NCBI GenBank assembly: GCA_965219695.1
Contig: CBDCOJ010000032.1
Coordinates: 517,747 to 581,746, forward strand
Direction of reading: 5' to 3'
Length of the DNA stretch: 64,000 nucleotides
DNA from: Candidatus Poribacteria bacterium
GTDB lineage: Bacteria > Poribacteria > WGA-4E > WGA-3G
Shown here: piece by piece, positions 1,125 through 45,494 of the stretch
How positions within the stretch are numbered: the first letter of the stretch is position 1
Layout: each line of letters starts with the position of its first letter
The notes under the pieces: generated by a model
Database searches by the model: none
Seen by the model: only the letters and a program-made list of their open reading frames with translations
Told to the model about the DNA's origin: nothing
Program-made: the position numbers and the translations under genes

Positions 1125-1304
1125 TTGAATTTATTTTCTTAATTATAAAGGAATTGGAATTTGGGAACGTTTTCCTTGACTATTGGGATACATTGAGGGA
1201 ATCTAACAATATAGGAAACACATCTATTCCGGTATGATTTTATAATAGTACTTAACATGCGGGCCTGTCCTACGGACAGACGCAATTTAGATAAGGAAGA
1301 GGAC

Positions 1305-2225
1305 ATGTCAACAAAAATTAAACTAAAAATTCAAGAGATGTCTTATCAGCACTCTGTCAAAACGAGGACAGATGTTCTGACAGAGCTTCAAGGTGTTAAA
1401 CAGGCAACGGTTGACCTTTGTAATAATGGGACAGTGATGAATTTGGACACTTCTCGTATCACCACAAAAAACATAACGAAATCAGGGTTTAAAGCGATAG
1501 AGAAATTTGAAAATATCTCGTTGCAATTTCTCAGTGCAGTCCTAATCCTATTTCTTGGCGTAATCGGCTGTTCCGATGTGCCTTACTCAGGTCCAATACT
1601 ATCGGTTGACCATGTTGACCGGTATCTTGACTCGGTAGGTGAAGATACAATCTGTCTCCAAGATGGATTTGATTCTATTTGCCTAAAAGAAATTCCGGGA
1701 GAATACGAAGCAGGCGACAACGTACCTATCGTCAACGTGCATCCAACAAGCCTTGTTTTTATGTTCTATTATGAAGACAGGCTGTTGTTGCGGGCGGAAA
1801 GATTAATGGATACCAGTCAGATTGTGCAAGAGATGATAGATTCTGGACAGGTCCAATCGCCAATTATCAATGGTACTAATGGAAATGTCCCAGAGGAGTG
1901 GGTAATCCAAATATACTATCCAGATTCATTTCCCGAAGCAAAACGAGGAAAAACACCCAATACCAGCGGATTTGACATTAAGGTCGCAAAGGGAATGAAG
2001 CAAAATATTAATAACCAACAAGAACTAAAAATAAAGAACTTTACCCAAATAAACGTAACTGATGGTACCCGAGGTATTCAATTCTCTATTGAAACTGAAG
2101 CTAAGGATATAACAATTCAAGTAGACAAATTAGTTTCTGGGTATACAGCAAAGTTCTATATCAATGCAGACGGCGTAGCATCTGATGAAGGTACTAATAT
2201 TCTTCAATTGATACCTCTACAGTAG
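1305..2225 (+). CDS. paralog A of tandem lipoprotein family (N-domain + WIVWIYYP C-domain, no linker)
   Basis: The ORF track frame is 1257..2225. ATG 1305 is preceded by aaggaagagg. A hydrophobic segment is followed by the lipobox LGVIGC-SD. The N- and C-terminal domains align with ORFs 2230..3396 and 3695..5341. The start is uncertain, with an alternative ATG at 1437. Confidence 0.6.
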   Translation: MSTKIKLKIQEMSYQHSVKTRTDVLTELQGVKQATVDLCNNGTVMNLDTSRITTKNITKSGFKAIEKFENISLQFLSAVLILFLGVIGCSDVPYSGPILSVDHVDRYLDSVGEDTICLQDGFDSICLKEIPGEYEAGDNVPIVNVHPTSLVFMFYYEDRLLLRAERLMDTSQIVQEMIDSGQVQSPIINGTNGNVPEEWVIQIYYPDSFPEAKRGKTPNTSGFDIKVAKGMKQNINNQQELKIKNFTQINVTDGTRGIQFSIETEAKDITIQVDKLVSGYTAKFYINADGVASDEGTNILQLIPLQ

Positions 2226-2247
2226 TCTCTTGGGAAGGAGTAACATC

Positions 2248-3396
2248 ATGGGAATGGGAAAAAGAATCGGTGGCATATTCCGTCAACGCTGTAGAAATAA
2301 AGTGGCGGATGCACTGGCAGAAAAGGCAAATGTTTTACGTGGAGGCGTGAACCTGCGTTGTAGTAATCAGGGAAGTTATCTTAATACATCGCGTAGTCCT
2401 AATTTCTTCCTTATAACGGCAATAATGAGAAAAGGTTTTGAAGCAGCCAAGCGAACCGTCCCTTTTTTACTAAGTTTGATCGTAAGTATTTTTATAGTAC
2501 TTTTAAACATAACCGGTTGTTCTGACAATCCTTATACAGGTTCAATGCTGCAACCCGGCGATGTAGATAACTATATTTTTTCACCTGGTGGCGGAAGAAT
2601 TTGTCTTACCAATGGGATAGAGACAGCTTGTGTAACACTTGTACCAAAAGGAAGAGATGGCACCTTACCCCTTATTTACATCTATTCATCAAGTATTGCA
2701 CATGTGTTCTATCATGAAGGTATGCCTATTATACGTGCAGAAAGAGAGACTGACACCTCAGGTATTATAAAAGAGATTACAGGAGGCACTGGCACACAAT
2801 CTGGCGGTGGTCCCGACAGCGGCATCGGACCTCGTGATGATGGCGGTCAACAACCCGGTGGTGGCACATCCGGCGGCGGAAATAACAACGGCAACGACGG
2901 AAACAACAATAATGGTGGCGGAAATAACAACGGCGGTACACCACCTACTGGTACACCACCCGGTGGTGGCCAAACGCAAGGGGATAATACTGGCGGTGAC
3001 AACAATGCTGGCACACCTCCTAACGATGGTGGTACTCCGCCTAATGACGATAGTCCTCCCAATAATATTGTTTCACATTACGTTTTTAGTAATCCCCCGA
3101 ATAACTTGTCCGGAGACGAATGGATAGTGTGGATATACTACCCGGATAACTATAGTGGGCCACGTGGGTTACCAAATTCCCCTGATGGATACGGGTTTAC
3201 TATTACCGTAGATGGTGGTGAAACAACAGAGTTTGCACAAGTTACTGGAGGCGAACGCGGATCCGGTGTTAGACTCGTCATTCGAACAAATCAGCCAGAA
3301 ACATATATCACCATAACATGGAATCCGCCCTATACTGATCGTTCCGCAACATTCACCCTTAAAAGTGATATTGACCTAAAAGATTATGACTTATGA
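2248..3396 (+). CDS. paralog B of tandem lipoprotein family (Gly/Asn/Pro/Thr-rich ~110 aa linker)
   Basis: ATG 2248 follows the RBS gggaaggag. The track start at 2230 is TTG in the same frame. Lipobox LNITGC-SD, conserved N-domain with the two-Cys motif RICLTNG..TAC, a G/N/D/P/T low-complexity region, and the conserved C-domain EWIVWIYYPDNY...ITITWNPPY. Confidence 0.7.
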   Translation: MGMGKRIGGIFRQRCRNKVADALAEKANVLRGGVNLRCSNQGSYLNTSRSPNFFLITAIMRKGFEAAKRTVPFLLSLIVSIFIVLLNITGCSDNPYTGSMLQPGDVDNYIFSPGGGRICLTNGIETACVTLVPKGRDGTLPLIYIYSSSIAHVFYHEGMPIIRAERETDTSGIIKEITGGTGTQSGGGPDSGIGPRDDGGQQPGGGTSGGGNNNGNDGNNNNGGGNNNGGTPPTGTPPGGGQTQGDNTGGDNNAGTPPNDGGTPPNDDSPPNNIVSHYVFSNPPNNLSGDEWIVWIYYPDNYSGPRGLPNSPDGYGFTITVDGGETTEFAQVTGGERGSGVRLVIRTNQPETYITITWNPPYTDRSATFTLKSDIDLKDYDL

Positions 3397-3694: not shown

Positions 3695-5341
3695 ATGGCA
3701 AAAATAAAATTCGGAATCGGTAATATCTTCTGTCTCATAGCAGAAATAATGAAAAAAGGCATTGAAGCAGTCAAAAACCTCTTACCTCTATCACTAAGAT
3801 TAATAGGAGCAATCTTAATTATAATTCTTGGTATAACCGGATGTTCCGACAACCCTTATACAAGTTCAATGCTGCAACCCAGTGATGTAGATAAATATAT
3901 CTTTTCAAGTGGCGGCAGAATTTGCCTTACCAATGGGTTTGAGACAGCTTGCTTAACACTTGTACCGAAACGAAATAATCGCAATTTACCTGTAATCCAT
4001 TTTTATCCGTCAAGCATTGCCTATGTGTTTTATTATGAAGGTGTGCCTGTCGTACGTGCAGAAAGACCGATGGACACAACTGAAATAGTGGAACAGATAA
4101 CAGGCACAGGAACAGATACAGGAGGGGGAAATCAACCGCGCGATAGTGGCATTCGCGTGGTAGATATACCGCCTCCTGCAGATCCCCCACCTCCAGCGGA
4201 TCCGCCTCTACCTGAGACAGACGTTAGTCTTGATCCCGAAAAGACTGTTATTGACGTCAATCAAGATCCGCCTCTACCTGAGACAGACGTTAGTGGTCAG
4301 CAACCCGATAATACTGGTGGCAGTGGTCAACAACCTCGTGGCAATACTGGTGGCGGTACGAATCCGAACCCTAATTTTAATCCGTTGCCTATTCAACCGC
4401 CGACTGATCAACAACCCCCTGGCAGTCAGCAACCTCCTGGCGGTCAAACACCTGGCGACAACGGCGACGACGACAATAATGGCGGTCAAACACCTGGCGA
4501 CAACGGCGACGATGACAATAATGGCGGTCAAACACCTGGCGACGACGACAATAATAATGGCGGTCAAACACCTGGCGACAACGGCGACGACGACAATAAT
4601 AATGGCGGTCAAACACCTGGCGACAACGATAACAACGGTGATCAAACGCCTCCCGGTAATAACAATCCACCAGTCAATAACAATCCACCAGTCAATAACA
4701 ATCCACCAGTCAATAACAATCCACCAGTCAATAACAATCCACCAGTCAACACTCCGAACCCGAGTGGACACAACCCACCCGACAATGCTCTTTCACATTT
4801 AGTTTACGGGCACGCTGATGACGATCCTGCCCACCCTACACACGTAGATGGATGGATAGTGTGGATATACTACCCGCACAACTACGCTGAGCAAGGGCAT
4901 CCGCGTGGATTAGGCATTGAGCCGTTTAGTAAACAGACTGGTCCACGTTCAGTTGATGATCCCTTAACAGATTATAGAGATGATTACGGGTTTACATTGA
5001 GCGTAAGCGGTGGTGAGGTCACAGGATTTTCGCAAACTGAAGGAGACTGCATTGACGAACGTATCGGTCCTCCTACCTTTGAAATTGAAGACAACCGTGA
5101 GATGGGTCGAGACCAACGTGATGATATTGACGACACTCCATGCAGCGCAAGCGGGAACAACTATAGCGTTCAGCTCTTCATTAAAACGAATGCGGAAAAA
5201 ATAACGCTTACTATACAGTGGACTCACGGTATGTATGCTCCCCAGACTCAGAAATTCAACATAATGAAAGAAATTAGCATGAAAGATTGGGATGAGGCGG
5301 GGTACGACCCAGGTCATACTAACCAAGAAAGATGGGATTAG
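3695..5341 (+). CDS. paralog C of tandem lipoprotein family (~250 aa repeat-encoded linker)
   Basis: RBS gaggag then ATG 3695. Lipobox LGITGC-SD. N-domain about 80% identical to paralog B. The linker is built from 5 x GGQTPGDNGDDDNN and 5 x NNNPPV units. C-domain GWIVWIYYPHNY...ITLTIQW. Confidence 0.7.
   Translation: MAKIKFGIGNIFCLIAEIMKKGIEAVKNLLPLSLRLIGAILIIILGITGCSDNPYTSSMLQPSDVDKYIFSSGGRICLTNGFETACLTLVPKRNNRNLPVIHFYPSSIAYVFYYEGVPVVRAERPMDTTEIVEQITGTGTDTGGGNQPRDSGIRVVDIPPPADPPPPADPPLPETDVSLDPEKTVIDVNQDPPLPETDVSGQQPDNTGGSGQQPRGNTGGGTNPNPNFNPLPIQPPTDQQPPGSQQPPGGQTPGDNGDDDNNGGQTPGDNGDDDNNGGQTPGDDDNNNGGQTPGDNGDDDNNNGGQTPGDNDNNGDQTPPGNNNPPVNNNPPVNNNPPVNNNPPVNNNPPVNTPNPSGHNPPDNALSHLVYGHADDDPAHPTHVDGWIVWIYYPHNYAEQGHPRGLGIEPFSKQTGPRSVDDPLTDYRDDYGFTLSVSGGEVTGFSQTEGDCIDERIGPPTFEIEDNREMGRDQRDDIDDTPCSASGNNYSVQLFIKTNAEKITLTIQWTHGMYAPQTQKFNIMKEISMKDWDEAGYDPGHTNQERWD
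4439..4645 (+). repeat. in-frame 42-bp tandem repeat, ~5 copies (ggcggtcaaacacctggcgacaacggcgacgacgacaataat)
   Basis: Near-perfect head-to-tail copies are visible in the sequence. Copy lengths are 36/42/45 bp, all multiples of 3. Confidence 0.9.
4658..4747 (+). repeat. in-frame 18-bp tandem repeat x5 (aataacaatccaccagtc = NNNPPV)
   Basis: Five perfect consecutive copies are visible in the sequence. Confidence 0.9.
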
Positions 5342-9822: not shown

Positions 9823-10674
9823 TCATCGACGCCGTCTCCGTTTTTGGGGGCGGGGTGCTACTGTTTCAGGTTCTGGAGTTTCGGATTCAATACCCACCTC
9901 CACTCTTGGTCGCTTGGACATCCACACCATAAAATAGATTCCAAAACAGAACAGGATAATACTGACAAGCTGCGGTGATGTCAACCACGACAAAGACGAC
10001 GTTTCAGGAAACACACGCGGTGTCAACCGCCAAAATTCTACGATAAATCTCTCCACGGCAAGCAGGACAAGACTTGCACCAAAGAGTAACCCTGGGATTG
10101 CCGCAAATTTTTTGCGTTGTGACCAGAGGATACCGAAGAACATAAATGAAATCAGGGTTTCATAGATAGGTGTCGGGTGAACAGGGACGTTTGTTGGAAC
10201 GGTGCCCTTTGGAAATGCCATTGCCCACGGCACATCGGAAGGCGGTCCGTAATCGCCATCACCTGCAAGCAAGCACCCAATGCGTCCAATACCATACCCA
10301 AGTAATAGGAGCGGTCCGATAACGTCAACAGTCGGAAGAAAAGGATTGGGCGAGCGATGGATAACCCAACTAATTGTCGCACTGCCACCGATTAATCCAC
10401 CATACCAGACTAATCCGGCCGGACTAAAGAGATCGCTTATTGAAAAATGTTCTACGATGAACAGTACATAATAGATTTTTGCGCCGAGTATCCCACCGAT
10501 AGCACCTGCAGCGACGATAGCAGTAGCTACCTCTCCTTGAAAACCCCTACGATTCAATTCACGTTGTATCATCACACTACATGTAATGAATGCAGTGGCT
10601 AACATAACGCCGTAGCTATGAATACCGATGGGAATAGAAAAGATCGTTCCCAAATCAATAAGCGTGGGATACAT
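9823..10674 (-). CDS. lgt: prolipoprotein diacylglyceryl transferase
   Basis: 283-aa polytopic membrane protein carrying the Lgt signature HPTPIYETL. C-terminal basic tail. Confidence 0.8.
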   Translation of the reverse strand: MYPTLIDLGTIFSIPIGIHSYGVMLATAFITCSVMIQRELNRRGFQGEVATAIVAAGAIGGILGAKIYYVLFIVEHFSISDLFSPAGLVWYGGLIGGSATISWVIHRSPNPFLPTVDVIGPLLLLGYGIGRIGCLLAGDGDYGPPSDVPWAMAFPKGTVPTNVPVHPTPIYETLISFMFFGILWSQRKKFAAIPGLLFGASLVLLAVERFIVEFWRLTPRVFPETSSLSWLTSPQLVSIILFCFGIYFMVWMSKRPRVEVGIESETPEPETVAPRPQKRRRRR

Positions 10675-15602: not shown

Positions 15603-15706
15603 CAAAACGCGCCTACCATTCGTGCGTAAGCCCTATAAATGTTTAAAAAATTCTTGTGGGAGCGGTTTCCAATAAGTGTAACAAAACGAGGAAACCGGCA
15701 AAAATT

Positions 15707-16645
15707 ATGAAACTGAAATGTAACGCTATACAACGTTTTATATCAGACTACATAGATGATACGCTTTCAGCACGCGACACTGCAAAGGTTGAAGCACATC
15801 TCCAGTTTTGTTTAGTATGTCAACATGAAGTCAATGCTCTCAAAAAGACGCGTGATCTTGTTGTTGATTTTTATGTTGAACCCGAGACACCTGATAGTTA
15901 TTTTCATCAATTTGAGGTAGAATTGCACCGTTGTATTGAAAATAAGGGGCCTATCCCGCTAAACCAGCGACTAAAGACCTCGTTGTTGCAGTTTACTTGG
16001 TCTTTGCTAACGCAACTTCGTCAAAGTTTTGGGCGATATAGCTTCATCAGGATGAATGCGTTACCGTTAGGTGTGCTTTTAGTGTTAATAACTACAGGAT
16101 TTATGGTAACGCATCTACTGAAACAGGAAGTTTCACCACCGCCTAAGGTATATCTACAACAGGGAGGTGAAGCAGCTCTATCCAATGAATCAGTTACTGT
16201 CAACGCAAAATCAAAGTTGCGGCAAGGCATTTACAATGATCGTAAAACCAAACGGAAGACACCTGAAGAAGTTAGTTCACCAACTCTCGCAGCAGATGCA
16301 GAGAAAGTAGGCTATTGGAAATTGACAGAGCCTTTAACTACTGAAACCGAAGGGCATATTATTGTTATGCATATCAGTAATGATCGTTCTGTTCCGAGTG
16401 AAGCGGCTGATTCTGAACTGATTGTTTATGCACAACCTGACATCTTAAGCAGGGAATCACCTTTACAAGAGGATAATTATGCCGCGCTTCCGTTGGAACT
16501 TCAAGTTGCCCCCTTTTCAGAGAAATACCAGCGAAAGCACCTTAAATTACCACGGTTTGTCAACAAATTCATGAACGTATCTTCAGAAAACGTATCTTCA
16601 GAAGTACTTACTATGCCAGAGCTCTACGACTTAAGTAAATTGTAA
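15707..16645 (+). CDS. putative zinc-finger anti-sigma factor (membrane-spanning)
   Basis: It lies immediately downstream of the ECF sigma gene. N-terminus HLQFCLVCQHE (HxxxCxxC zinc-finger anti-sigma motif), a central TM helix (LPLGVLLVLITTGFMV) and an extracytoplasmic tail. The start is taken at the internal ATG; the track ORF begins at 15656. Confidence 0.55.
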   Translation: MKLKCNAIQRFISDYIDDTLSARDTAKVEAHLQFCLVCQHEVNALKKTRDLVVDFYVEPETPDSYFHQFEVELHRCIENKGPIPLNQRLKTSLLQFTWSLLTQLRQSFGRYSFIRMNALPLGVLLVLITTGFMVTHLLKQEVSPPPKVYLQQGGEAALSNESVTVNAKSKLRQGIYNDRKTKRKTPEEVSSPTLAADAEKVGYWKLTEPLTTETEGHIIVMHISNDRSVPSEAADSELIVYAQPDILSRESPLQEDNYAALPLELQVAPFSEKYQRKHLKLPRFVNKFMNVSSENVSSEVLTMPELYDLSKL

Positions 16646-16825: not shown

Positions 16826-19800
16826 ATGAATCCAAGAATTTTGGGCATTATTGGTGGTCTCGCCCTTATCGTTGCTCTACTCTCGCCTTTTATGATGGGA
16901 AGTTCTAAAAAGGTAGAGCGACTCTATTTATCTGCTAAAGGACTATATGAACAAGCAGATTATGAAGGGGCGATAGCCAAGTATACTGAGGCACTTGAAG
17001 AGTCGACAAAACGCGGTGTGAAAACCGAAGTGATTGACAAAGATTTTACGACGCTTGCTAATTTTCAAATTGCTGTTTCTTATTCTCGCCTTGCTGAGCA
17101 GACAGGTGATGTTAACCACTATGATACAGCGCTTGAGTATATTGAAAAAGTGGCTCCTAACGCTACTATAGCTAAACATCAAGAAGGGTTAACATACCTC
17201 TGGGGACATATTCTATATAGAACGGAACAGTATGAACTTGCTGAAGCAAAGTTCACACAGTTGATTGATAATTTCCCTAACAGTCTACAAGTAGAGAACG
17301 CGTGGTATGCTATCGGTCAATTGAACTATAAGTTAGGAAATTACGAGAGTTCTCGAACCGCTTTTAACAATATTCTTGTCGGTTTTCCTAACTCTGAATT
17401 CAAGGATGACGCGCAGCTTCTCATCGCTCAATCCTTCCTTGACGAAAGCAATTACGAACAAGCTTACCCGGAATTTGATAAATTTGCCACTGATGAGTTT
17501 AAGAATTTTCCAGAACTGCATGCCGAAGCGATGTATAAAGCCGCTTTCTGTTTGAATCAACTTAATAGAGACGATGAAGCGATCAGTCGTTATACAAACT
17601 TCATTACACAATTTCCAGAACATCAGCTTGTTACGGCGGCATATTTCGACCAAGGCCATATTTATGCTAAACAGAAAGACTATGACAATGCACGCGTTAA
17701 CTTTGAGTTAGCACTCCAAAATACAGCAGACCGTGGCCTCCAATCCGAAATTCAGTTTGCCATTGGGGAAACATACTTTGATCAAGCTGACTATGAAAAC
17801 GCGATTGTATCTTACACAAAACTGTTAGACGAATATCCAGAGAGTGCATTCATCGGTGATGCAAAACTCGGTGTAGCCGACAGTCAGTTCCGATTGGATC
17901 GTTGGAGTGATGCTATCACTTCATATCAATCGGTTATTGAACACGAAAAAAGTGAAATGCAATCCGAAGAAGGTTCTGAACTCAGTTTAACACCTTATTG
18001 CTCTTTACAAGTTGGCGAAGCATTTTACAAACTTGGAACTAATCAACGCGATGCTGGTCAGATGCAGGAAGCGGATGCAACGCTTGAACTCGCGTTAGAA
18101 TGGTACCTGAAAACCGTTGACGATTTTCCGGAAAACCCTGTTGTGCCGCATGCATTATATGGTGCAATCTGGACATTGAATGACTTGGGACGCAAGGAAG
18201 AATTGGAGAAAATTGCGAGCGAGTTTATTGAAAAAAATCGTAACGATAACGAGTTTGATATCCTTGCTGCAGAGGTACAACTCCGCTTTGCTGACATAAA
18301 ACGCACCGAATTTAAGCAATATGTTGAAGCCGCAGAAGAATACGCTCAATTGTGGGAATACCGTCCACTTCCCAAATTCCATCTTATCAAGTTAATGGGC
18401 AAATTCTTTGAAGGTCGTTCCTACTATGAAGCCGCAAAACCTGAAGGTTATCAAGAAGGCGATACTACCACAAATTTCAATGCGGAATATCTCCAAAAAT
18501 CTGTTGGGGCATACCAAGACGCTATCAACATGTTTTCTGATGAATCTTTTCGTCCTGGCATTGAAGAAGGACGCTACCAAGACTTCTCAGAACGTATTGC
18601 ACAGGTTGAAGCATGTCTCATGAACGAAGCACTCTCACACGAGATGCTCGGGGCATGGGATATAGCGCGACAACGCTACGCTATGATTCCTGAAGCCAGT
18701 AACTACTATGAACGTGCACTTTTGCTCACCGCAAACAGTTATGTAAGGCAGGGGGACAAATCCCAAGCTATCACTTATTACAATTCAATAATGTCAAAAC
18801 TTGCAGACAAAAACAATCTTTCATTGGCAGAGATTAAGCTTGCAGATCTGCTGCGTGCTGAAGAACGGTTTGAAGAAGCGGCAGCCGAATACCAAGATGT
18901 TGTTGATGGTAACCCAACAGGTGAATATGCAGATGATGCGTTGTACTTTGTAGGTCTTTGCTACTATCATGCTTCATCGGAGAAACCTGAGCTTATTGAA
19001 AAAGCTGCAGAGGCTTTCAATAAGGTTGTGATGGAATACGCGGATAGTCCAAACGCCATTGAAGCCTATTATGGCTTGGCACTTGTTTACCAAGATGCTG
19101 CTAAAAAACATGGTGATACGACGAAGTGGTCCCTTATCGTTCAGACGGCAGACGCAGCAACCGAAAAATTCGCTGACAGTAGTGAAGAGTTGGTTCTCCA
19201 AACACTCGGACAAATTGATCTCATCAAAGCAACAGCCCTTGAAAACATAAACGCTGATGATATTGAAGGTCTTGTCGCGAGTCTACAGCAAGTTGTTAAT
19301 AACTCTGGAGCACGCGAAGATGCTCGCATCCGATCACAGCTTAAGATTGGGCATACTTACTACAGTAAAGAGCGTTTTGAAGAAGCTCTCGCTGCGTATA
19401 AATTATTCGTCGAAAAATTTCCGAATAGCGAAATTGCACCAACTGCACAATTTCAATCTGCTGTCTGTTATTACCAGATAGCCCAGAAGGCTAAAGATGC
19501 CGATGCAGCACAACTCGCGTATACCAATGCTGCCAGTGAAGCAGAGAAGGTTACCGAAATGACGGATAACGTTGATAACCTCATTAGCGCAAATTATACG
19601 CTCGGTTTATCAAAATTTGGGCTAAAGGATACGCAAGGTGCAATTGATGCCTTCAAGCAGGTCACTTCCTTTGAAGGTCAAACCGAGGACGAAAATCGCA
19701 AAAATCTCATCTCTCAAGCACACTCGCGACTTGCTGAATTATTCAGCAATGTTGGCAATCATGAGGACGCTGTGAAAGAGTATCAGTACATTATCGCTAA

Positions 19801-21538
19801 TACCGAAGATGATGACTTGCGAGGACGTTCCTATTTTGCGATGGCTTATGCACAAGACGAACATCTTAAGATGTATGATGATGCATTGACAAACTATCAG
19901 AACGCTATTCAGTTAGCTGATAATCTGGTGAAGGCACAGTCCTATTATAGGACAGGTTTGATTTATCAAGAAAAACTCAACAATCTTGATAAAGCATTGG
20001 AAGTTTTCCAAAACTTGATTGCCAACTATAGTACGGAACAGAATACCGGTGTTGCTTCTATGGTTGCTGACGCGAGTCTACGGCGTTCTGAACTGTTTGT
20101 GAAATTGGGGCGCTTAGACGAGGCTATCGCTGATTCAATAAGTTCAGTAGAAGCACTTAAGACAAGCCCGACTGCAACTGTTGCGCAAAAAGTTGCTGCA
20201 TTATATACCCTCGGATTTCTCTATTCAGATAAAGCACGCACCCACTATCCTGAGGATCTGCCCCAAGGATTTGATCTTAAGCCCTATATTGAAACGAGTG
20301 GGTTAGCCGCTTCTTCTTTCTTTGAAGTTAGCAAACTTGCTGCGCCTGTAGAGAAGGCGGATAAACAAACGGTCATTCCGTATGTACAAAATTCGCTTTT
20401 CCAAGCCGGCCAGATATACTATTCACTGGGTGCTGGATTTAAGCGGCGCGCAGAGTTGTTACTCGCCATTGATCCGCTTACAGAGTTTGTTAAATATGCG
20501 GATGCAGGTATATTCGCTGCCTCAAAGGATCTACCAGGAGACGTGGAGACTTCATTAACCTATTTAGCCTCTGCTAACTTTGACTTGGGGCGGATGCAAG
20601 TTGGATTAGACGAAGAGATGTCTCCGCAAGCTGTTGCTTATTTCGACGCTTCTGTTAAGGTTTTCAACGATCTTGTCAAACGCTATCCAAATGCCAAAGA
20701 TGCAGCACTCTGGCAGTATCAAGCTGGCGAAGCTTACTATACAACAGAGCAGTTTGAAAAAGCTATTGTTGAATATGATAAGGTCAGACGGGTTAATAAG
20801 ACGCATGAAAAAGCTCCTGAATCCTTATACGCTATCGCTACTTGTTATCAATTTCTCTCTGAAACAGCGAAAGACGCAGGCAATACAGATGCTGAAAAAG
20901 CGTTTCTTGACAAACTATTTGAAACAAACGAGATACTTGTCAAGGAATATAACAATAGCAAGTTCGCTGGCGAGGCGTTTATCAACATTGGTAATAAGCA
21001 CTATAACGCCGCTTTGGATCCAGAACTTGAGGCAACTGAGCAAATCGATCTCTTCCGACAAGCGATTGAAAACTACAAGCGAGCACTTGCAGCGCCCGGT
21101 CTCAGTGCAGAGTCCAAAAACACTGCAGAGGGTTTCCTTAATGAGACCGAGAGTTTTCTTGCACATAATGAATATAAGTATGCTATCACATCACTTGGCA
21201 AGGCTCAAAGAGCATCTGAAAAGTCTGACATTGAAGAAGCAATTGATCTCTTCAAAGCCATCACGAAAGCTTATTCAGAAACCAAGTATGGCGATCTTTC
21301 TTACGGTAAGTTAGGAGAAGCATATACAATGCTCGCGAATAAAGAGGAAAGCTATTATCCGTATGCATTGTATTACTTCCAGTTCTTGCCTAAGAAATAT
21401 GCAAGAATAGAACCTGCTGACTCTCAGGTCCAGGATGCAATTAACTACTGTATTCTTAAGTCTAATGAGATTCAAGCTTACATGAAGTCTAAGAATATTG
21501 AGCCACTTCAGGGAGAACCTGAAGATGGTAACGAATAA
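16826..21538 (+). CDS. giant tetratricopeptide-repeat (TPR) protein with N-terminal membrane anchor
   Basis: 1570-aa protein. An N-terminal TM helix is followed by tens of 34-residue TPR-like units (recurring A..Y..A...F..FP.S). A terminator hairpin lies downstream. Confidence 0.8.
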   Translation: MNPRILGIIGGLALIVALLSPFMMGSSKKVERLYLSAKGLYEQADYEGAIAKYTEALEESTKRGVKTEVIDKDFTTLANFQIAVSYSRLAEQTGDVNHYDTALEYIEKVAPNATIAKHQEGLTYLWGHILYRTEQYELAEAKFTQLIDNFPNSLQVENAWYAIGQLNYKLGNYESSRTAFNNILVGFPNSEFKDDAQLLIAQSFLDESNYEQAYPEFDKFATDEFKNFPELHAEAMYKAAFCLNQLNRDDEAISRYTNFITQFPEHQLVTAAYFDQGHIYAKQKDYDNARVNFELALQNTADRGLQSEIQFAIGETYFDQADYENAIVSYTKLLDEYPESAFIGDAKLGVADSQFRLDRWSDAITSYQSVIEHEKSEMQSEEGSELSLTPYCSLQVGEAFYKLGTNQRDAGQMQEADATLELALEWYLKTVDDFPENPVVPHALYGAIWTLNDLGRKEELEKIASEFIEKNRNDNEFDILAAEVQLRFADIKRTEFKQYVEAAEEYAQLWEYRPLPKFHLIKLMGKFFEGRSYYEAAKPEGYQEGDTTTNFNAEYLQKSVGAYQDAINMFSDESFRPGIEEGRYQDFSERIAQVEACLMNEALSHEMLGAWDIARQRYAMIPEASNYYERALLLTANSYVRQGDKSQAITYYNSIMSKLADKNNLSLAEIKLADLLRAEERFEEAAAEYQDVVDGNPTGEYADDALYFVGLCYYHASSEKPELIEKAAEAFNKVVMEYADSPNAIEAYYGLALVYQDAAKKHGDTTKWSLIVQTADAATEKFADSSEELVLQTLGQIDLIKATALENINADDIEGLVASLQQVVNNSGAREDARIRSQLKIGHTYYSKERFEEALAAYKLFVEKFPNSEIAPTAQFQSAVCYYQIAQKAKDADAAQLAYTNAASEAEKVTEMTDNVDNLISANYTLGLSKFGLKDTQGAIDAFKQVTSFEGQTEDENRKNLISQAHSRLAELFSNVGNHEDAVKEYQYIIANTEDDDLRGRSYFAMAYAQDEHLKMYDDALTNYQNAIQLADNLVKAQSYYRTGLIYQEKLNNLDKALEVFQNLIANYSTEQNTGVASMVADASLRRSELFVKLGRLDEAIADSISSVEALKTSPTATVAQKVAALYTLGFLYSDKARTHYPEDLPQGFDLKPYIETSGLAASSFFEVSKLAAPVEKADKQTVIPYVQNSLFQAGQIYYSLGAGFKRRAELLLAIDPLTEFVKYADAGIFAASKDLPGDVETSLTYLASANFDLGRMQVGLDEEMSPQAVAYFDASVKVFNDLVKRYPNAKDAALWQYQAGEAYYTTEQFEKAIVEYDKVRRVNKTHEKAPESLYAIATCYQFLSETAKDAGNTDAEKAFLDKLFETNEILVKEYNNSKFAGEAFINIGNKHYNAALDPELEATEQIDLFRQAIENYKRALAAPGLSAESKNTAEGFLNETESFLAHNEYKYAITSLGKAQRASEKSDIEEAIDLFKAITKAYSETKYGDLSYGKLGEAYTMLANKEESYYPYALYYFQFLPKKYARIEPADSQVQDAINYCILKSNEIQAYMKSKNIEPLQGEPEDGNE

Positions 21539-43370: not shown

Positions 43371-45494
43371 ATGAAAAAGCTTAAATTTATATCAATATTA
43401 CTTTTTGCTCTATGTTTCATCAATAATAATAATGTTGCTCCAGAAGAGGAATGGATGCCAGACCCTCACTTACGGCAGGCTGTTCGTGAAGAACTCGAAA
43501 TCCCTGATGAGATACCTATACATCCCGGAGACATGCCAGGATTACATAATCTTTTCGTAATAGAAATAGAACACGATATTAGGAGTTTAAAAGGGCTTGA
43601 GTATGCGGTGAATCTTAAAGTCTTGGTTATCGACAGAAGTCAAGCCTCAGATTTAACGCCACTTGCGGGGCTTGAGAACTTAGTATCCTTGTCTGTTGTT
43701 AGAAGTGAAGTCTCAGATTTAACACCTCTGGCGGGGCTCAAGAATTTACGGGTCTTAAAGTTGGGTAAAAATCATCGCATTTCGGATATAACACCCCTCG
43801 CAGGACTGGTGAATTTAGAACGGTTGCACTTGAACGACAATAAGATTTCAGATCTCACACCCCTCACAGGACTGGTGAATTTAGAACGGTTGCACTTGAA
43901 CGACAATAAGATTTCAGATCTCACACCCCTCACAGGACTGGTGAATTTAAGATGGTTGCACTTGGAATACAATCAAATTTCAGACCTAACCCCGATAAGA
44001 AACCTAACCAAACTCGAGCAGTTGACAATAATAGGCAATCCTATTGACTATACAGAATTGGGAAATCTACCAGCAGAATTGCGCCAGTGCCTGGTGGATG
44101 CCTCCCCGTATAAAGCCCCCATTGCAGAACGCATCCAAAACAGAGTCTATCCTTCTATCGGGGTGAGAGACTACGTACTTGCGACGCGTGGTCAACGCAC
44201 TATGGAAATTTTCACGAGGTTTGACTTGGTTTTTGGAGCTCTCCCTTTTATTCCCCTTAGAGAATGGACAACAAGATGGCTAACAGCATGGGGATTTCCG
44301 CCTGTCGTCAAAAACTTATCCACACGTGTGGGACATATAGATGAAATGATAGAAATACACACCGAAGTCCTTCAACGAAATCCTAATATGATTTTGCTTA
44401 TAGGTCTGGATTTTCAGAATGGACTTTTTGAAAGGTATGGTGAAGATTGGGAGGGGTGGCTACGCGATAAAGAGGGAAATCGTCTAACATCCCGTTGGCG
44501 CACGTATACCGGGGAAGAAGACTGGGATAATCTTATCGACTTCACGAAGCCTGTCGTCATAGAACAAATTGTGCAACAGGCAAAATCGATTAGCGAGTGC
44601 GGACTCTATGATGGTATCTGGCTCGATCATTGGGGCGAAGGGAAAAGACTACAAGGAGTCTACACCGCAGAAGAAGAATATATTGCGAAGGACACAATCC
44701 TCCAACGCATCCGCGAAGTTGTTCCCGATGACTTTTTTATACTCGTTAACAACAACCGCCGTAAACTGCAGCCTCGCTGGGCACCCTATGTCAACGGTAT
44801 CTATATGGAATCAGGACGCGATTTTTTGGAGACTAGGCCGGATGGACCTGACGGCTATACCTTTGCTGGGATCCGTGACATAGAAGAGGCACTTTTGTGG
44901 AATGAAACGAAACTGAGGAAACCGACATTAAATCTTTTAGAGGGTGAAGTGTCATATACCAAAGCGATTGACGATCCCGAAGTAAAGCAAATCGTCAGGT
45001 TTTTCACGACAATGGCACTCACACATTCCAACGCATCGGTTTTTATGCTCCATTATGATGATTTTTACTGGTACCGCTTCTATGATGCCCCTTTGGGGCA
45101 ACCGATTGGTGGCGATGAAACTAAAGGCATTCTCTACGAAACCCCGAAAGGTGAGGCCATTGATGGAATGTTCATCCGGGAGTTCACCAACGGCTGGGCG
45201 GTGTATAATCGGAGTGGTGCAGCACAGGAGATAGAACTTCCGCAGGAGGTTTCCGGCTGGTCGAGCGGTGTGGAGCATCAACGCCGGCATACGTTGGCGG
45301 ATTTGGATGGCGAGATTTATTTAAAGGCTGAAACGGGGACATCTGCGGATGTCAATGGCGATGGCGTTGTGAATATCCAAGATTTGGTGATTGTTGCCAA
45401 TGCCTTTGGCGGAGCAGAACCTGATATCAATGGCGATGGCGTTGTTAATATTCAGGATTTAGTGATTGTCGCAAACGCCTTTGGAGAAAATTAA
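43371..45494 (+). CDS. secreted leucine-rich-repeat protein with central uncharacterised domain and C-terminal dockerin-like repeat pair
   Basis: Signal peptide, then about eight 22-aa LRRs (LxxLxxLxLxxNxIsDLTPLxGL, internalin-like). A roughly 400-aa central domain follows. The C-terminus has two DVNGDGVVNIQDLVIVANAFG segments, the dockerin type-I calcium-binding pattern. Confidence 0.75.
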   Translation: MKKLKFISILLFALCFINNNNVAPEEEWMPDPHLRQAVREELEIPDEIPIHPGDMPGLHNLFVIEIEHDIRSLKGLEYAVNLKVLVIDRSQASDLTPLAGLENLVSLSVVRSEVSDLTPLAGLKNLRVLKLGKNHRISDITPLAGLVNLERLHLNDNKISDLTPLTGLVNLERLHLNDNKISDLTPLTGLVNLRWLHLEYNQISDLTPIRNLTKLEQLTIIGNPIDYTELGNLPAELRQCLVDASPYKAPIAERIQNRVYPSIGVRDYVLATRGQRTMEIFTRFDLVFGALPFIPLREWTTRWLTAWGFPPVVKNLSTRVGHIDEMIEIHTEVLQRNPNMILLIGLDFQNGLFERYGEDWEGWLRDKEGNRLTSRWRTYTGEEDWDNLIDFTKPVVIEQIVQQAKSISECGLYDGIWLDHWGEGKRLQGVYTAEEEYIAKDTILQRIREVVPDDFFILVNNNRRKLQPRWAPYVNGIYMESGRDFLETRPDGPDGYTFAGIRDIEEALLWNETKLRKPTLNLLEGEVSYTKAIDDPEVKQIVRFFTTMALTHSNASVFMLHYDDFYWYRFYDAPLGQPIGGDETKGILYETPKGEAIDGMFIREFTNGWAVYNRSGAAQEIELPQEVSGWSSGVEHQRRHTLADLDGEIYLKAETGTSADVNGDGVVNIQDLVIVANAFGGAEPDINGDGVVNIQDLVIVANAFGEN
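43801..43932 (+). repeat. perfect 2 x 66-bp tandem repeat inside LRR gene (one LRR unit each, + diverged third copy)
   Basis: caggactggtgaatttagaacggttgcacttgaacgacaataagatttcagatctcacacccctca is repeated identically back-to-back. Confidence 0.9.

What the first reader, a model, noticed from the sequence alone, without database searches (positions are those of the whole stretch)
4439..4747. Linker of paralog C is built from perfect in-frame tandem DNA repeats (42-bp x5, 18-bp x5)
The 42-bp unit encoding GGQTPGDNGDDDNN occurs five times with only 3-bp indels. It is followed directly by five perfect 18-bp units encoding NNNPPV. A separate 30-bp unit (gatccgcctctacctgagacagacgttagt) appears twice, at 4199-4228 and 4265-4294. 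Such near-identical repeats are prone to slipped-strand or recombinational expansion and contraction. That implies length polymorphism of the protein stalk between cells or strains, a contingency-locus-like behaviour. The D/N-rich repeats also resemble calcium-binding acidic spacers.
Basis: seen in the sequence. Interest (0 to 1): 0.6.

Follow-up and report, generated by a model that had tools for sequence, protein, structure and literature searches.

The report
Repeat-encoded variable linker, Poribacteria envelope protein
The repeats are real and encode a floppy, acidic spacer between two folded domains of a membrane-anchored protein found only in sponge-associated Poribacteria; related genomes show the spacer is rebuilt quickly by gain and loss of whole repeat units, a familiar kind of evolution and not an on/off switch.

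Summary
Observation confirmed. ORF C (3695-5341, 548 aa) carries in-frame DNA repeats. Five GGQTPGD-type units start at 4439, 4481, 4523, 4559 and 4604 (42, 42, 36 and 45 bp; the fifth diverges after 27 nt). Five perfect 18-bp NNNPPV units lie at 4658-4747. An exact 30-bp pair lies at 4199 and 4265.

The repeats form part of a ~216-aa linker predicted to be disordered. It joins a conserved membrane-proximal domain to a fast-evolving beta-rich C-terminal domain. The family is undescribed and every source-named member is Candidatus Poribacteria. It occurs here as three tandem paralogs with short (A), ~85-aa (B) and ~216-aa (C) linkers.

Related genomes support unit-wise turnover. Two genomes with 95-97% identical neighbouring genes have linkers 99.5% identical in sequence that differ by 96 nt of whole-unit indels. 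A third has replaced the dominant unit. Orthologs carry about 1, 1, 3 or 5 copies at the NNNPPV site.

The "contingency locus" reading is only partly supported. Every repeat period is a multiple of 3. One related strain is identical in two samples. No same-species data exist. Paralog length classes are conserved. Calcium binding has no support beyond net acidity. Verdict: a new member of a known kind, the size-variable repeat spacer of envelope proteins.

The parts
1257..2225 (+). Paralog A. It has a degenerate HMA-like N-terminus without CxxC, a TM helix with lipobox VIGC, the conserved N-domain, only ~4 aa between domains, and an A-type C-domain. The likely start is ATG 1305, which has an SD-like sequence upstream.
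   Evidence: (CopZ-like E 1e-6, below cutoff)
2230..3396 (+). Paralog B. It has the same architecture with an ~84-aa G/N/P/T-rich linker. The likely start is ATG 2248, preceded by AGGAG.
   Evidence: Its close ortholog P0025 starts at the equivalent Met.
3695..5341 (+). Paralog C, the host gene of the finding (548 aa). ATG 3695 is preceded by GAGGAG.
3695..3841 (+). N-terminal remnant of an HMA domain (internally deleted) plus a hydrophobic helix ending in the lipobox-like ILGITG|C.
   Evidence: Comparison with HMA-bearing relatives P0030-P0034. AF2 predicts a helix at residues 9-49. The strict PS51257 pattern is matched.
3842..4105 (+). Conserved membrane-proximal N-domain (CSDNPY...RAER...), beta-rich, with two invariant internal Cys. 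There is no Pfam or PDB match.
   Evidence: (125 representatives among 1.84 billion)
4106..4753 (+). Inter-domain linker of 216 aa. Composition is P 20%, N 19%, G 16%, D+E 15%, with net charge -29. It has no predicted secondary structure and low confidence (per-10-residue mean pLDDT mostly below 50; one block at 62).
4199..4294 (+). Exact 30-bp pair (4199-4228 and 4265-4294) encoding DPPLPETDVS, that is, an imperfect 66-bp duplication.
4408..4453 (+). Small 18-bp repeat of ~2.2-2.6 copies (QQPPGS-type).
4439..4651 (+). GGQTPGD-type array: units of 42, 42, 36 and 45 bp plus a diverged fifth unit. The 18-nt core GGCGGTCAAACACCTGGC is shared with the L001 ortholog.
4658..4747 (+). Five perfect 18-bp units (NNNPPV). 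This is a lineage-specific expansion: orthologs have about one copy or a different unit.
4754..5338 (+). C-terminal beta-rich domain (NPNPSGHNPPDN...WIVWIYYP...), fast-evolving, with no significant fold or sequence match.

Best explanation
The repeats encode most of the C-terminal half of an intrinsically disordered, polar and net-acidic spacer. The spacer joins two folded domains of a membrane-anchored envelope protein.

The protein belongs to an undescribed family whose source-named members are all Candidatus Poribacteria. Its architecture is: (HMA or its remnant) - TM helix ending in a lipobox - conserved N-domain - low-complexity linker - variable beta-rich C-domain.

Inferred mechanism: the linker DNA behaves as a set of in-frame minisatellites. 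Replication slippage or unequal recombination adds and removes whole units. Selection removes out-of-frame products and keeps the composition (G/N/D/P/Q/T, almost no hydrophobic or basic residues) and a rough, paralog-specific length class. It does not keep the sequence. The window's arrays are young expansions of older motifs.

Inferred function: the linker most likely acts as a flexible tether that sets how far the C-domain can reach from the membrane-proximal N-domain. The three tandem paralogs would offer three reaches (~0, ~85 and ~216 residues).

Shown: the repeats, the frame, the architecture, the predicted disorder, unit-wise turnover between related genomes, and the length classes.
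Inferred: the slippage mechanism, the tether function, the cellular location, and any adaptive value of length change.
For: - Repeats are real, in frame and far beyond chance.
- The linker is flanked in the same frame by two domains conserved across the family.
- AF2 gives no secondary structure and low confidence (pLDDT mostly below 50) across residues ~137-364. It predicts beta domains on both sides.
- The C-domain alone reaches pTM 0.64.
- Family-wide, 70 of 77 members of at least 250 aa have a polar low-complexity region of at least 30 aa (median 109, maximum 337).
- Family linkers are hydrophobic-poor (0-14% hydrophobic residues, most under 6%) and always net negative.
- Every TRF array in the family genes of the fetched loci has a period divisible by 3. 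Arrays reach 18 bp x 34 and 15 bp x 33.
- L010 versus L013: obg and proB are 95-97% identical. The C-gene N-domain is 100% identical. The linker is 99.5% identical over 654 nt yet differs by 96 nt of whole-unit indels. L011 has a different dominant unit (GGGDN x ~40) at similar total length.
- At the NNNPPV site orthologs have about 1 (P0009, P0001), about 3 of a 15-bp variant (P0002), about 0-1 (L001) and 5 (window) copies.
- The GGQTPG core 18-mer is shared at DNA level with L001, which is ~12% diverged. The window's copies differ by a single synonymous change, so they were amplified or homogenised recently.
- Length classes are conserved in the nfo-obg locus of every genome fetched: A 4-20, B 81-91, C mostly 200-285 aa.
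- Only B and C carry such a segment in the 64-kb window.
Against: - No same-species or read-level comparison was possible, so polymorphism within this organism's population is not shown.
- A related strain is identical across two samples (L011 = L012), so change is not fast on that timescale.
- The full-length model is poor (mean pLDDT 50). Low pLDDT is only indirect evidence of disorder.
- The tether function is an analogy. Topology is unresolved between an uncleaved signal anchor with a cytoplasmic HMA remnant and a processed lipoprotein.
- Neither domain has a recognisable fold or homolog of known function.
- C-type linkers range 59-340 aa across the phylum, so any length constraint is loose.
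- Paralog A does without a linker.
Confidence: 0.7

Rival explanations
1. Size-variable surface shield or antigen, or a phage-receptor variant. The protein is exposed on the cell surface. Repeat-number change is itself the selected trait, altering the accessibility or recognition of the cell by the sponge host or by phages, as in the size-variable mycoplasma and ureaplasma lipoproteins.
For: - The layout is comparable to Ureaplasma MBA: a conserved N-terminal anchor plus in-frame tandem units, where unit gain and loss by slipped-strand mispairing gives size variants (PMC3637154).
- The distal C-domain evolves fast: dN/dS is 0.28-0.49 against 0.05-0.14 for neighbours. In the L010/L011/L013 trio its dS is 2-4 times that of neighbours, suggesting allele exchange.
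- The C-domain type is swapped in L002.
- The linker is rebuilt between genomes of 95-97% identity.
Against: - Surface exposure is untested.
- In relatives, an intact cytoplasmic HMA domain ahead of the TM helix points to an inner-membrane anchor.
- The linker is identical in two samples of one strain.
- Length classes are conserved per paralog.
- dN/dS stays below 1.
Confidence: 0.2
2. Neutral low-complexity drift. The linker only has to be non-folding and soluble. The repeats, their turnover and their length are by-products of slippage under relaxed constraint and have no adaptive meaning.
For: - Linker sequence is not conserved even between close relatives.
- C-type length spans 59-340 aa.
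- Paralog A has almost no linker.
- 7 of 77 longer members lack such a region.
Against: - The presence and composition class of the linker persist across the family.
- Length classes A, B and C do not overlap in syntenic loci.
- L011 and L013 linkers are largely made of different units yet differ by only 15 nt in net length.
- Basic and hydrophobic residues are excluded throughout.
Confidence: 0.25
3. True contingency (phase-variable) locus. Repeat instability switches production of the distal domain on and off.
For: In a second family locus of other Poribacteria, the linker carries frameshifts that separate the N-domain from the C-domain. L014 has two G7 runs. L015 has two adjacent 14-bp units in place of 15-bp units, the same 1-bp deletion copied.
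Against: - In the window all units are multiples of 3 and the ORF is intact.
- The window's linker contains no long homopolymer (direct reading).
- The L014 shifts sit in homopolymers and may be sequencing errors.
- Many split gene calls come from assembly gaps; L016 has a 100-N gap in the linker.
- There is no population evidence.
Confidence: 0.05
4. Calcium-binding acidic spacer. The D/N-rich units bind Ca2+ and fold or stiffen.
For: Net charge is -29 to -30 in the window's linker. All family linkers are net acidic. The organism is marine, where Ca2+ and Mg2+ are abundant (general knowledge).
Against: - No RTX, EF-hand, thrombospondin-type or other Pfam match at E <= 1.
- The units lack the hydrophobic positions of a beta-roll (direct reading).
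- The closest ortholog has N where the window has D, and D+E ranges only 7-19% among C-type linkers. Acidic residue positions are therefore not conserved.
Confidence: 0.07
5. Assembly artefact. The repeat number in the window is wrong, collapsed or expanded.
For: These linkers do break short-read assemblies: there is a 100-N gap in L016 and many C-domain-only gene calls.
Against: - The window is contiguous.
- The frame is preserved through all arrays.
- The arrays are short: 90 bp perfect, and ~210 bp with distinguishing variants.
- Larger arrays of the same kind occur in closed genomes whose contig names carry 15-85x coverage tags, and reproducibly in two samples.
Confidence: 0.05

Closest known systems
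Ureaplasma multiple banded antigen (MBA) and the Mycoplasma Vlp/Vsa size-variable lipoproteins
   Same: They have a conserved N-terminal membrane anchor followed by in-frame tandem units. Unit gain and loss, attributed to slipped-strand mispairing, changes protein size between isolates (PMC3637154; Vlp/Vsa from my own knowledge).
   Different: - In those proteins the repeats are the exposed C-terminal end of the protein. Here they form an internal linker between two folded domains.
- There is no sequence relationship (no Pfam hit).
- The organism is a diderm sponge-associated bacterium, not a wall-less pathogen.
- Within-population size variation is demonstrated there and is untested here.
Ser-Asp repeat 'stalk' (R region) of staphylococcal Clf/Sdr adhesins
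   Same: Both are an acidic low-complexity spacer encoded by an 18-bp DNA repeat, variable in length between strains, that projects a folded ligand-binding domain away from the anchor (my own knowledge).
   Different: - Those proteins are wall-anchored at the C-terminus by sortase in Gram-positives.
- Their composition is a dipeptide SD repeat.
- The top Foldseek hit of the C-domain to SdrG is not significant (E 0.09, TM 0.18), so no homology is implied.
Neisseria H.8/Lip and Laz (AAEAP pentapeptide-repeat lipoproteins)
   Same: They have a lipobox Cys followed by a 15-bp-unit low-complexity linker that tethers a folded domain, azurin in the case of Laz (my own knowledge).
   Different: - Their linker follows the lipidated Cys directly. 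Here a folded N-domain intervenes.
- The composition differs (A/E/P-rich).
- Homology was not tested beyond the absence of Pfam hits.
Periplasm-spanning spacers: TonB/TolA domain II and the disordered linkers of E. coli lipoproteins (RcsF, Pal, NlpD)
   Same: The layout is membrane anchor, then a long Pro-rich or disordered segment of very variable length, then a globular C-terminal domain. TonB domain II is 40-245 residues and TolA domain II is 110-335 residues (PMC12204202). For RcsF, an artificial linker restores outer-membrane targeting only if it is of similar length and disordered (bioRxiv 10.1101/2021.01.05.425367).
   Different: - There is no SHLS motif in the TM helix.
- No exbBD/tolQR-like genes lie nearby (neighbours are nfo, obg, proB, proA, lgt and ABC ATPases).
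- An extra conserved N-domain is present.
- The linker is N/G/D-rich and built of recent DNA repeats.
Classical simple-sequence contingency loci (phase variation by repeat-number change)
   Same: Both have a mutable tandem repeat tract inside a gene for an envelope protein.
   Different: Units here are 15-45 bp and all multiples of 3, so changes alter length rather than expression. High-frequency reversible switching is not shown.

Membership tests
Simple-sequence contingency locus | A tandem repeat tract within or next to a gene, with copy number differing between close relatives | tested here: met
   Arrays at 4439-4651 and 4658-4747. Whole-unit differences occur between L010 and L013 at 95-97% neighbour identity.
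Simple-sequence contingency locus | Copy-number change shifts the frame or the promoter spacing, so expression switches on and off | tested here: not met
   All units in the window and all TRF periods in the family genes are multiples of 3. The arrays lie inside the ORF, far from its start.
Simple-sequence contingency locus | High-frequency, reversible variation within a clonal population | not testable with these tools
   No reads are available and no same-species sequence was found. The only same-strain pair available, L011 and L012, is identical.
Size-variable repeat (lipo)protein of the MBA/Vlp kind (functional class, not a homology family) | A conserved N-terminal anchor region plus in-frame tandem units whose number differs between strains | tested here: met
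   For the window's own species, strain comparison was not possible.
Size-variable repeat (lipo)protein of the MBA/Vlp kind (functional class, not a homology family) | Surface exposure of the repeat region | not testable with these tools
   Topology is unresolved. An HMA domain ahead of the TM helix in relatives suggests an inner-membrane anchor.
Bacterial lipoprotein (PROSITE PS51257 rule) | The lipobox pattern {DERK}(6)-[LIVMFWSTAG](2)-[LIVMFYSTAGCQ]-[AGS]-C | tested here: met
   C matches with ILIIILGITGC and A with VLILFLGVIGC. B fails at -4 (N). A lipobox-like [LIVM]x[GAS]C followed by S-D is found in most family members (92 of 110 proteins with the N-domain motif).
Bacterial lipoprotein (PROSITE PS51257 rule) | Cys at position 15-35 of the precursor, with K/R in the first 7 residues | tested here: not met
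   With the SD-supported starts the Cys is at position 50 (C), 91 (B) and 89 (A). It would be 32 only from internal ATGs that lack an SD-like sequence.
Bacterial lipoprotein (PROSITE PS51257 rule) | Lipidation by Lgt and cleavage by signal peptidase II | not testable with these tools
   This needs experiment (globomycin, mass spectrometry). lgt lies nearby at 9823-10674, which proves nothing.
HMA domain proteins (PF00403) | An HMA fold with the GMxCxxC metal-binding motif | tested here: not met
   Paralog C has no hit and only remnants of the first strand and the last segment. A has weak CopZ hits below cutoff and MSYQHS in place of CxxC. Relatives P0030 and P0033 do meet it (E 1e-13, GMSCQHC).
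Calcium-binding repeat proteins (RTX beta-roll, EF-hand, thrombospondin type 3) | A match to the family profile or motif | tested here: not met
   Pfam scan of C found 0 families at E <= 1. Acidic positions are not conserved in orthologs.
TonB/TolA-type force transducers | A TM helix with the SHLS motif and adjacent ExbBD/TolQR motor genes | tested here: not met
   The TM sequence is LLPLSLRLIGAILIIILGITGC. No motor genes appear among the neighbours in the window or in syntenic loci.

The most novel reading that the evidence does not exclude
The locus encodes a set of envelope 'rulers'. One conserved membrane-proximal module is fused, through repeat-built disordered tethers of three maintained length classes (~15, ~85 and ~230 aa), to interchangeable distal beta-sandwich modules.

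In this reading the repeat tract also serves as the recombination joint that lets distal domains be swapped between alleles and paralogs. In ancestral forms, an N-terminal cytoplasmic HMA metal-binding domain sits ahead of a lipobox. One precursor could then yield two products, or couple cytoplasmic metal status to a periplasmic or surface reach.
Probability: 0.15. Interest if true: 0.6.

Novelty: new member of a known kind. Interest (0 to 1): 0.35.

Why it matters
Repeat-encoded, length-variable spacers are a well-known way for bacteria to tune envelope proteins, so the finding itself is not surprising.

What is new is the carrier. It is an undescribed protein family with 125 representatives among 1.84 billion proteins, all source-named members of which are Candidatus Poribacteria. 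It has no Pfam, PDB or literature match for either conserved domain. It is present as two or three tandem paralogs next to obg-proB-proA, with non-overlapping linker-length classes.

Several long-read Poribacteria genomes that are named as circular are available for comparison. The family therefore offers a clean natural experiment on two questions: how fast in-frame minisatellites turn over relative to point substitution, and whether linker length is under stabilising selection in uncultured symbionts.

It also carries a practical warning. These linkers split gene calls and break short-read assemblies, so the family is under-annotated.

Tried and rejected
**Same-species comparison (failed)**
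- Exact-protein look-ups of C from both possible starts found nothing.
- Both JGI metagenome scans returned nothing (peptide patterns; degenerate NPNPSGHNPPDN DNA pattern).
- The linker-free C-domain search found nothing closer than 75% identity.
- Within-population polymorphism therefore could not be tested.

**Function by homology (failed)**
- Pfam and NCBIfam scans of the three paralogs and of relatives found only HMA in relatives.
- Profile searches of both domains against PDB sequences found nothing.
- Foldseek of the C-domain model against PDB had a best E of 0.09 and TM below 0.3, with generic Ig-like hits only.
- The N-domain alone was not modelled well enough to search (pLDDT 45-60).

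**Other negative results**
- The N-domain profile search in the word-indexed database added only short fragments.
- Promoter and terminator scans were at chance level.
- Rfam found nothing in the window.
- No paper was found describing the family.

**Considered and rejected**
- An RTX-like reading of GGGDN and GGQTPGD units: no profile hit and no hydrophobic positions.
- A TonB/TolA relationship: no motif and no motor genes.
- The alternative-frame ORF (4230-4802 +) and the antisense ORFs (4274-4771 - and 4389-4670 -): they are stop-free by-products of the repeats. Only the frame of ORF C is continuous with conserved domains on both sides.
Full report
**1. The observation**

ORF C runs from 3695 to 5341 on the + strand and encodes 548 aa.
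- The 18-mer AATAACAATCCACCAGTC occurs five times, perfect and contiguous, at 4658-4747. It encodes NNNPPV x5. Chance expectation in shuffles is 0.01.
- The 21-nt core GGCGGTCAAACACCTGGCGAC starts five units at 4439, 4481, 4523, 4559 and 4604, against 0.00 expected.
- The units measure 42, 42, 36 and 45 bp. The fifth keeps only 27 nt before diverging. Units 1 and 2 differ by one synonymous C/T.
- TRF scores this array as 4.6 copies with 86% matches.
- The 30-mer is an exact pair at 4199 and 4265.

The corrections are minor: the indels are -6 and +3 rather than only 3 bp, the fifth unit is diverged, and a 6-bp spacer precedes the 18-bp array.

**2. What the gene is**

ORFs 1257-2225 (A), 2230-3396 (B) and 3695-5341 (C) are tandem paralogs. 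They share four parts:
- a hydrophobic helix ending in a lipobox-like [LIV]x[GS]C followed by S-D;
- a ~90-aa N-domain with two invariant Cys;
- a variable low-complexity segment;
- a C-terminal domain built around WIVWIYYP, YGFT.SV.GG, F.Q, YSVQ.F and ITIT.W.

Neither domain has a Pfam or NCBIfam model, and neither matches PDB sequences.

Every homolog that a source names, and every genome hit, is Candidatus Poribacteria. An exhaustive HMMER search with the N-domain profile found only 125 representatives among 1.84 billion proteins. In nearly all of them the domain sits just after the N-terminal anchor.

Some relatives begin with a genuine HMA domain carrying GMSCQHC (PF00403, E 1e-13). In the window this domain is degenerate:
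- A keeps the fold signature but has lost both Cys.
- B is further decayed.
- C retains only its two ends.

SD-like sequences (AGGAG, GAGGAG) precede the far-upstream ATGs at 1305, 2248 and 3695. They do not precede the internal ATGs that would give a textbook signal peptide. The lipobox Cys therefore sits at precursor position 89, 91 or 50. The lipobox pattern is met, but the positional rule for lipoproteins is not. Whether the helix is a cleaved lipoprotein signal or an uncleaved signal anchor remains open.

**3. The linker**

HMM boundaries place C's linker at 4106-4753, 216 aa.
- Composition is P 20%, N 19%, G 16% and D+E 15%, with K+R 2% and net charge -29.
- In the AF2 model built with the family alignment, residues ~137-364 have no secondary structure and low confidence (pLDDT mostly below 50).
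- Beta-rich domains are predicted on both sides.
- The model as a whole is weak, with mean pLDDT 50.
- The C-domain alone gives pTM 0.64, with core strands at pLDDT 72-89.
- The C-domain has no significant structural neighbour: best Foldseek E is 0.09, TM is below 0.3, and hits are generic Ig-like sandwiches.

Within the 64-kb window only B and C carry such a segment.

Across the family, 70 of 77 members of at least 250 aa have a polar low-complexity region of at least 30 aa (median 109, maximum 337). Linkers have few hydrophobic residues (0-14%, most under 6%) and are always net negative, from -4 to -51.

**4. Evidence for repeat-driven turnover**

The linkers of different Poribacteria use different units: TNQPD, TNTPD, GGGDN, GGGIPP, GDPNN, DDTTI, GGTNN and IDPPVDV.

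At the DNA level these are high-identity tandem arrays. Examples are 18 bp x 33.7 in L004, 15 bp x 33.5 in L008 and 195 bp x 2.1 in L002. Every period reported by TRF in every family gene fetched is a multiple of 3.

The closest available genome is OZ241980.1 (L001/L003, a 5.08-Mb chromosome-level MAG).
- It is syntenic: nfo-A-B-C-obg-proB-proA-lgt.
- Its housekeeping neighbours are 86-89% identical in DNA to the window's.
- Its C ortholog is also 548 aa, by coincidence.
- Its linker shares only the PP.PETD and GGQTPG motifs with the window's. It lacks the NNNPPV array and is N-rich where the window's is D-rich.
- The 18-nt GGQTPG core is shared at DNA level, so that unit predates the split.
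- The window's copies are nearly identical to one another, so they were amplified or homogenised recently.

At the NNNPPV position, orthologs show about one copy (P0009, P0001), about three copies of a 15-bp variant (P0002), about 0-1 (L001) and five (the window).

The sharpest test comes from three closed genomes, L010, L013 and L011, which share the locus.
- Their obg and proB genes are 94.6-97% identical.
- L010 versus L013: the C-gene N-domain is 100% identical. The linker is 99.5% identical over 654 nt yet differs by 96 nt of whole-unit indels (GGGIPP x4 against x3, GGGNN x2 against x4, and different TNQPD/TNTPD counts).
- L011 carries GGGDN x ~40 where the others carry TNQPD.
- Unit gain and loss thus outpaces substitution.
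- Conversely, L011 and an independent 3x contig from another sample (L012) are 100% identical through the whole gene. The arrays are therefore stable over short spans.

**5. Length is not free**

In every genome's nfo-obg locus the first paralog has 4-20 aa between its domains, B has 81-91 aa, and the last paralog usually has 200-285 aa. When all available proteins are classed by C-domain type:
- A-type linkers are 4-23 aa (n=18).
- C-type linkers are 59-340 aa with median 229 (n=27).

L011 and L013 linkers are largely built of different units yet differ by only 15 nt in net length. This suggests, but does not prove, stabilising selection on a length class with free sequence turnover. It fits a spacer or tether role better than length variation as a bet-hedging device.

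For scale, TonB and TolA domain II range over 40-245 and 110-335 residues (PMC12204202). In E. coli RcsF, an artificial linker restores outer-membrane targeting only if it is of similar length and disordered (bioRxiv 10.1101/2021.01.05.425367).

**6.

Length differences between strains and species are supported.

'Contingency-like' behaviour is supported only in the weak sense of a mutable tract.
- There is no frame-switching unit in the window.
- There are no population data.
- One strain shows identity across two samples.

Frameshifts inside linkers do occur in a second family locus of other Poribacteria. L014 has two G7 runs. L015 has two adjacent 14-bp units that copy the same 1-bp deletion. 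These may be errors or pseudogenes, and they are not in the window.

The calcium idea has no positive support. There is no profile match, and acidic positions are not conserved. Only net acidity is general.

**7. Artefact check**

The window is contiguous and in frame through short arrays. Larger arrays of the same kind occur in closed genomes whose contig names carry 15-85x coverage tags. Short-read scaffolds do break in these linkers; L016 has a 100-N gap there. Read-level confirmation is therefore still desirable.

**8. Comparison and novelty**

The behaviour matches known size-variable repeat regions of envelope proteins:
- Ureaplasma MBA (PMC3637154);
- Mycoplasma Vlp/Vsa;
- staphylococcal SD-repeat stalks;
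- Neisseria AAEAP linkers (the last three from my own knowledge).

It also resembles the disordered spacers of envelope-spanning proteins. It shows no detectable sequence relationship to any of these families. No paper describing the family was found.

I rate it a new member of a known kind, carried by an undescribed Poribacteria-restricted family. Interest is modest at 0.35.

The more novel reading has three parts: graded 'rulers', a repeat tract acting as a recombination joint, and an HMA-plus-lipobox precursor. It rests on three observations:
- the length classes;
- the mosaic pattern, with N-domain dS 0-0.02, neighbours 0.11-0.19 and C-domain 0.33-0.45;
- the C-domain swap in L002.

This reading remains speculative.

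Noticed in passing
window 1257-1520, 2248-2520 and 3695-3841; relatives P0030-P0034 and P0042: The family's ancestral N-terminus is a genuine cytoplasmic HMA metal-binding domain (GMSCQHC) placed directly before a TM helix that ends in a lipobox. This combination is unusual. In the window it is decayed: A has lost both Cys, and C has an internal deletion. SD-like sequences support the upstream starts, so the remnant is probably translated.
   Followed up: partly
L010 8001-9614, L011 8001-9605, L013 8001-9602: The gene has a mosaic history. The N-domain has dS 0-0.02, neighbours obg and proB have 0.11-0.19, and the C-domain has 0.33-0.45 with dN/dS 0.35-0.49. History changes across the linker, which suggests recombination breakpoints in or near the repeats.
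   Followed up: partly
L002 11243-13000: The syntenic 'C' gene of this genome has a C-type N-terminal part and a long linker. Its C-terminal domain, however, is of a different, shorter type that scores closest to paralog B's (the P0021 group). This looks like a domain swap downstream of the linker. P0033 and P0042 carry yet another, unrelated C-terminal domain.
   Followed up: partly
L014 ~4424 and ~4465; L015 ~4440-4470: A second family locus (PCP_red - paralog - paralog - adh_short) occurs in other Poribacteria. Its second gene is frameshifted inside the linker: at two G7 runs in L014, and through two adjacent 14-bp units (in place of 15 bp) sharing the same 1-bp deletion in L015.
   Followed up: partly
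L016 4632-4731: A 100-N scaffold gap lies inside the linker of the closest C-domain relative, a Tara short-read scaffold. 12 of 13 hits to the C-domain are C-domain-only gene calls. These linkers break assemblies and gene calls.
   Followed up: yes
P0051 (147 aa): A collagen-like Gly-X-Y triplet run (GAQGPRGPQGAQGPRGPQGPQGEPGRPG) is inserted in a loop of the N-domain of one family member. Several weaker representatives (P0142, P0144, P0146) also carry collagen-like tracts.
   Followed up: no
window 4230-4802 (+, other frame), 4274-4771 (-) and 4389-4670 (-): Long stop-free ORFs in other frames and on the opposite strand overlap the repeats. They look like by-products of the low-complexity sequence, because only the frame of ORF C is continuous with conserved domains.
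   Followed up: partly
window 43371-45494, with the repeat at 43779-43984: A 66-bp x 3.1 tandem repeat (91% matches) encodes 22-aa leucine-rich repeats in a 707-aa protein with LRR domains and a C-terminal dockerin. It is a typical Poribacteria 'eukaryote-like' repeat protein.
   Followed up: partly
window 16826-21538: A 1570-aa TPR-rich protein with weak YfiO/BamD-like and Slam-TPR-like matches. Upstream, at 15656-16645, is a zf-HC2 (anti-sigma-type) protein.
   Followed up: no
window 9823-10674 (-): lgt (prolipoprotein diacylglyceryl transferase) lies just downstream of the A-B-C-obg-proB-proA block. It keeps this position in L001, L002 and L011 but not in L010 or L013. This is probably coincidental.
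   Followed up: no
window 16574-16603 and 29162-29210: Two further small exact or near-exact tandem duplications reported by TRF: 15 bp x 2 and 24 bp x 2.
   Followed up: no
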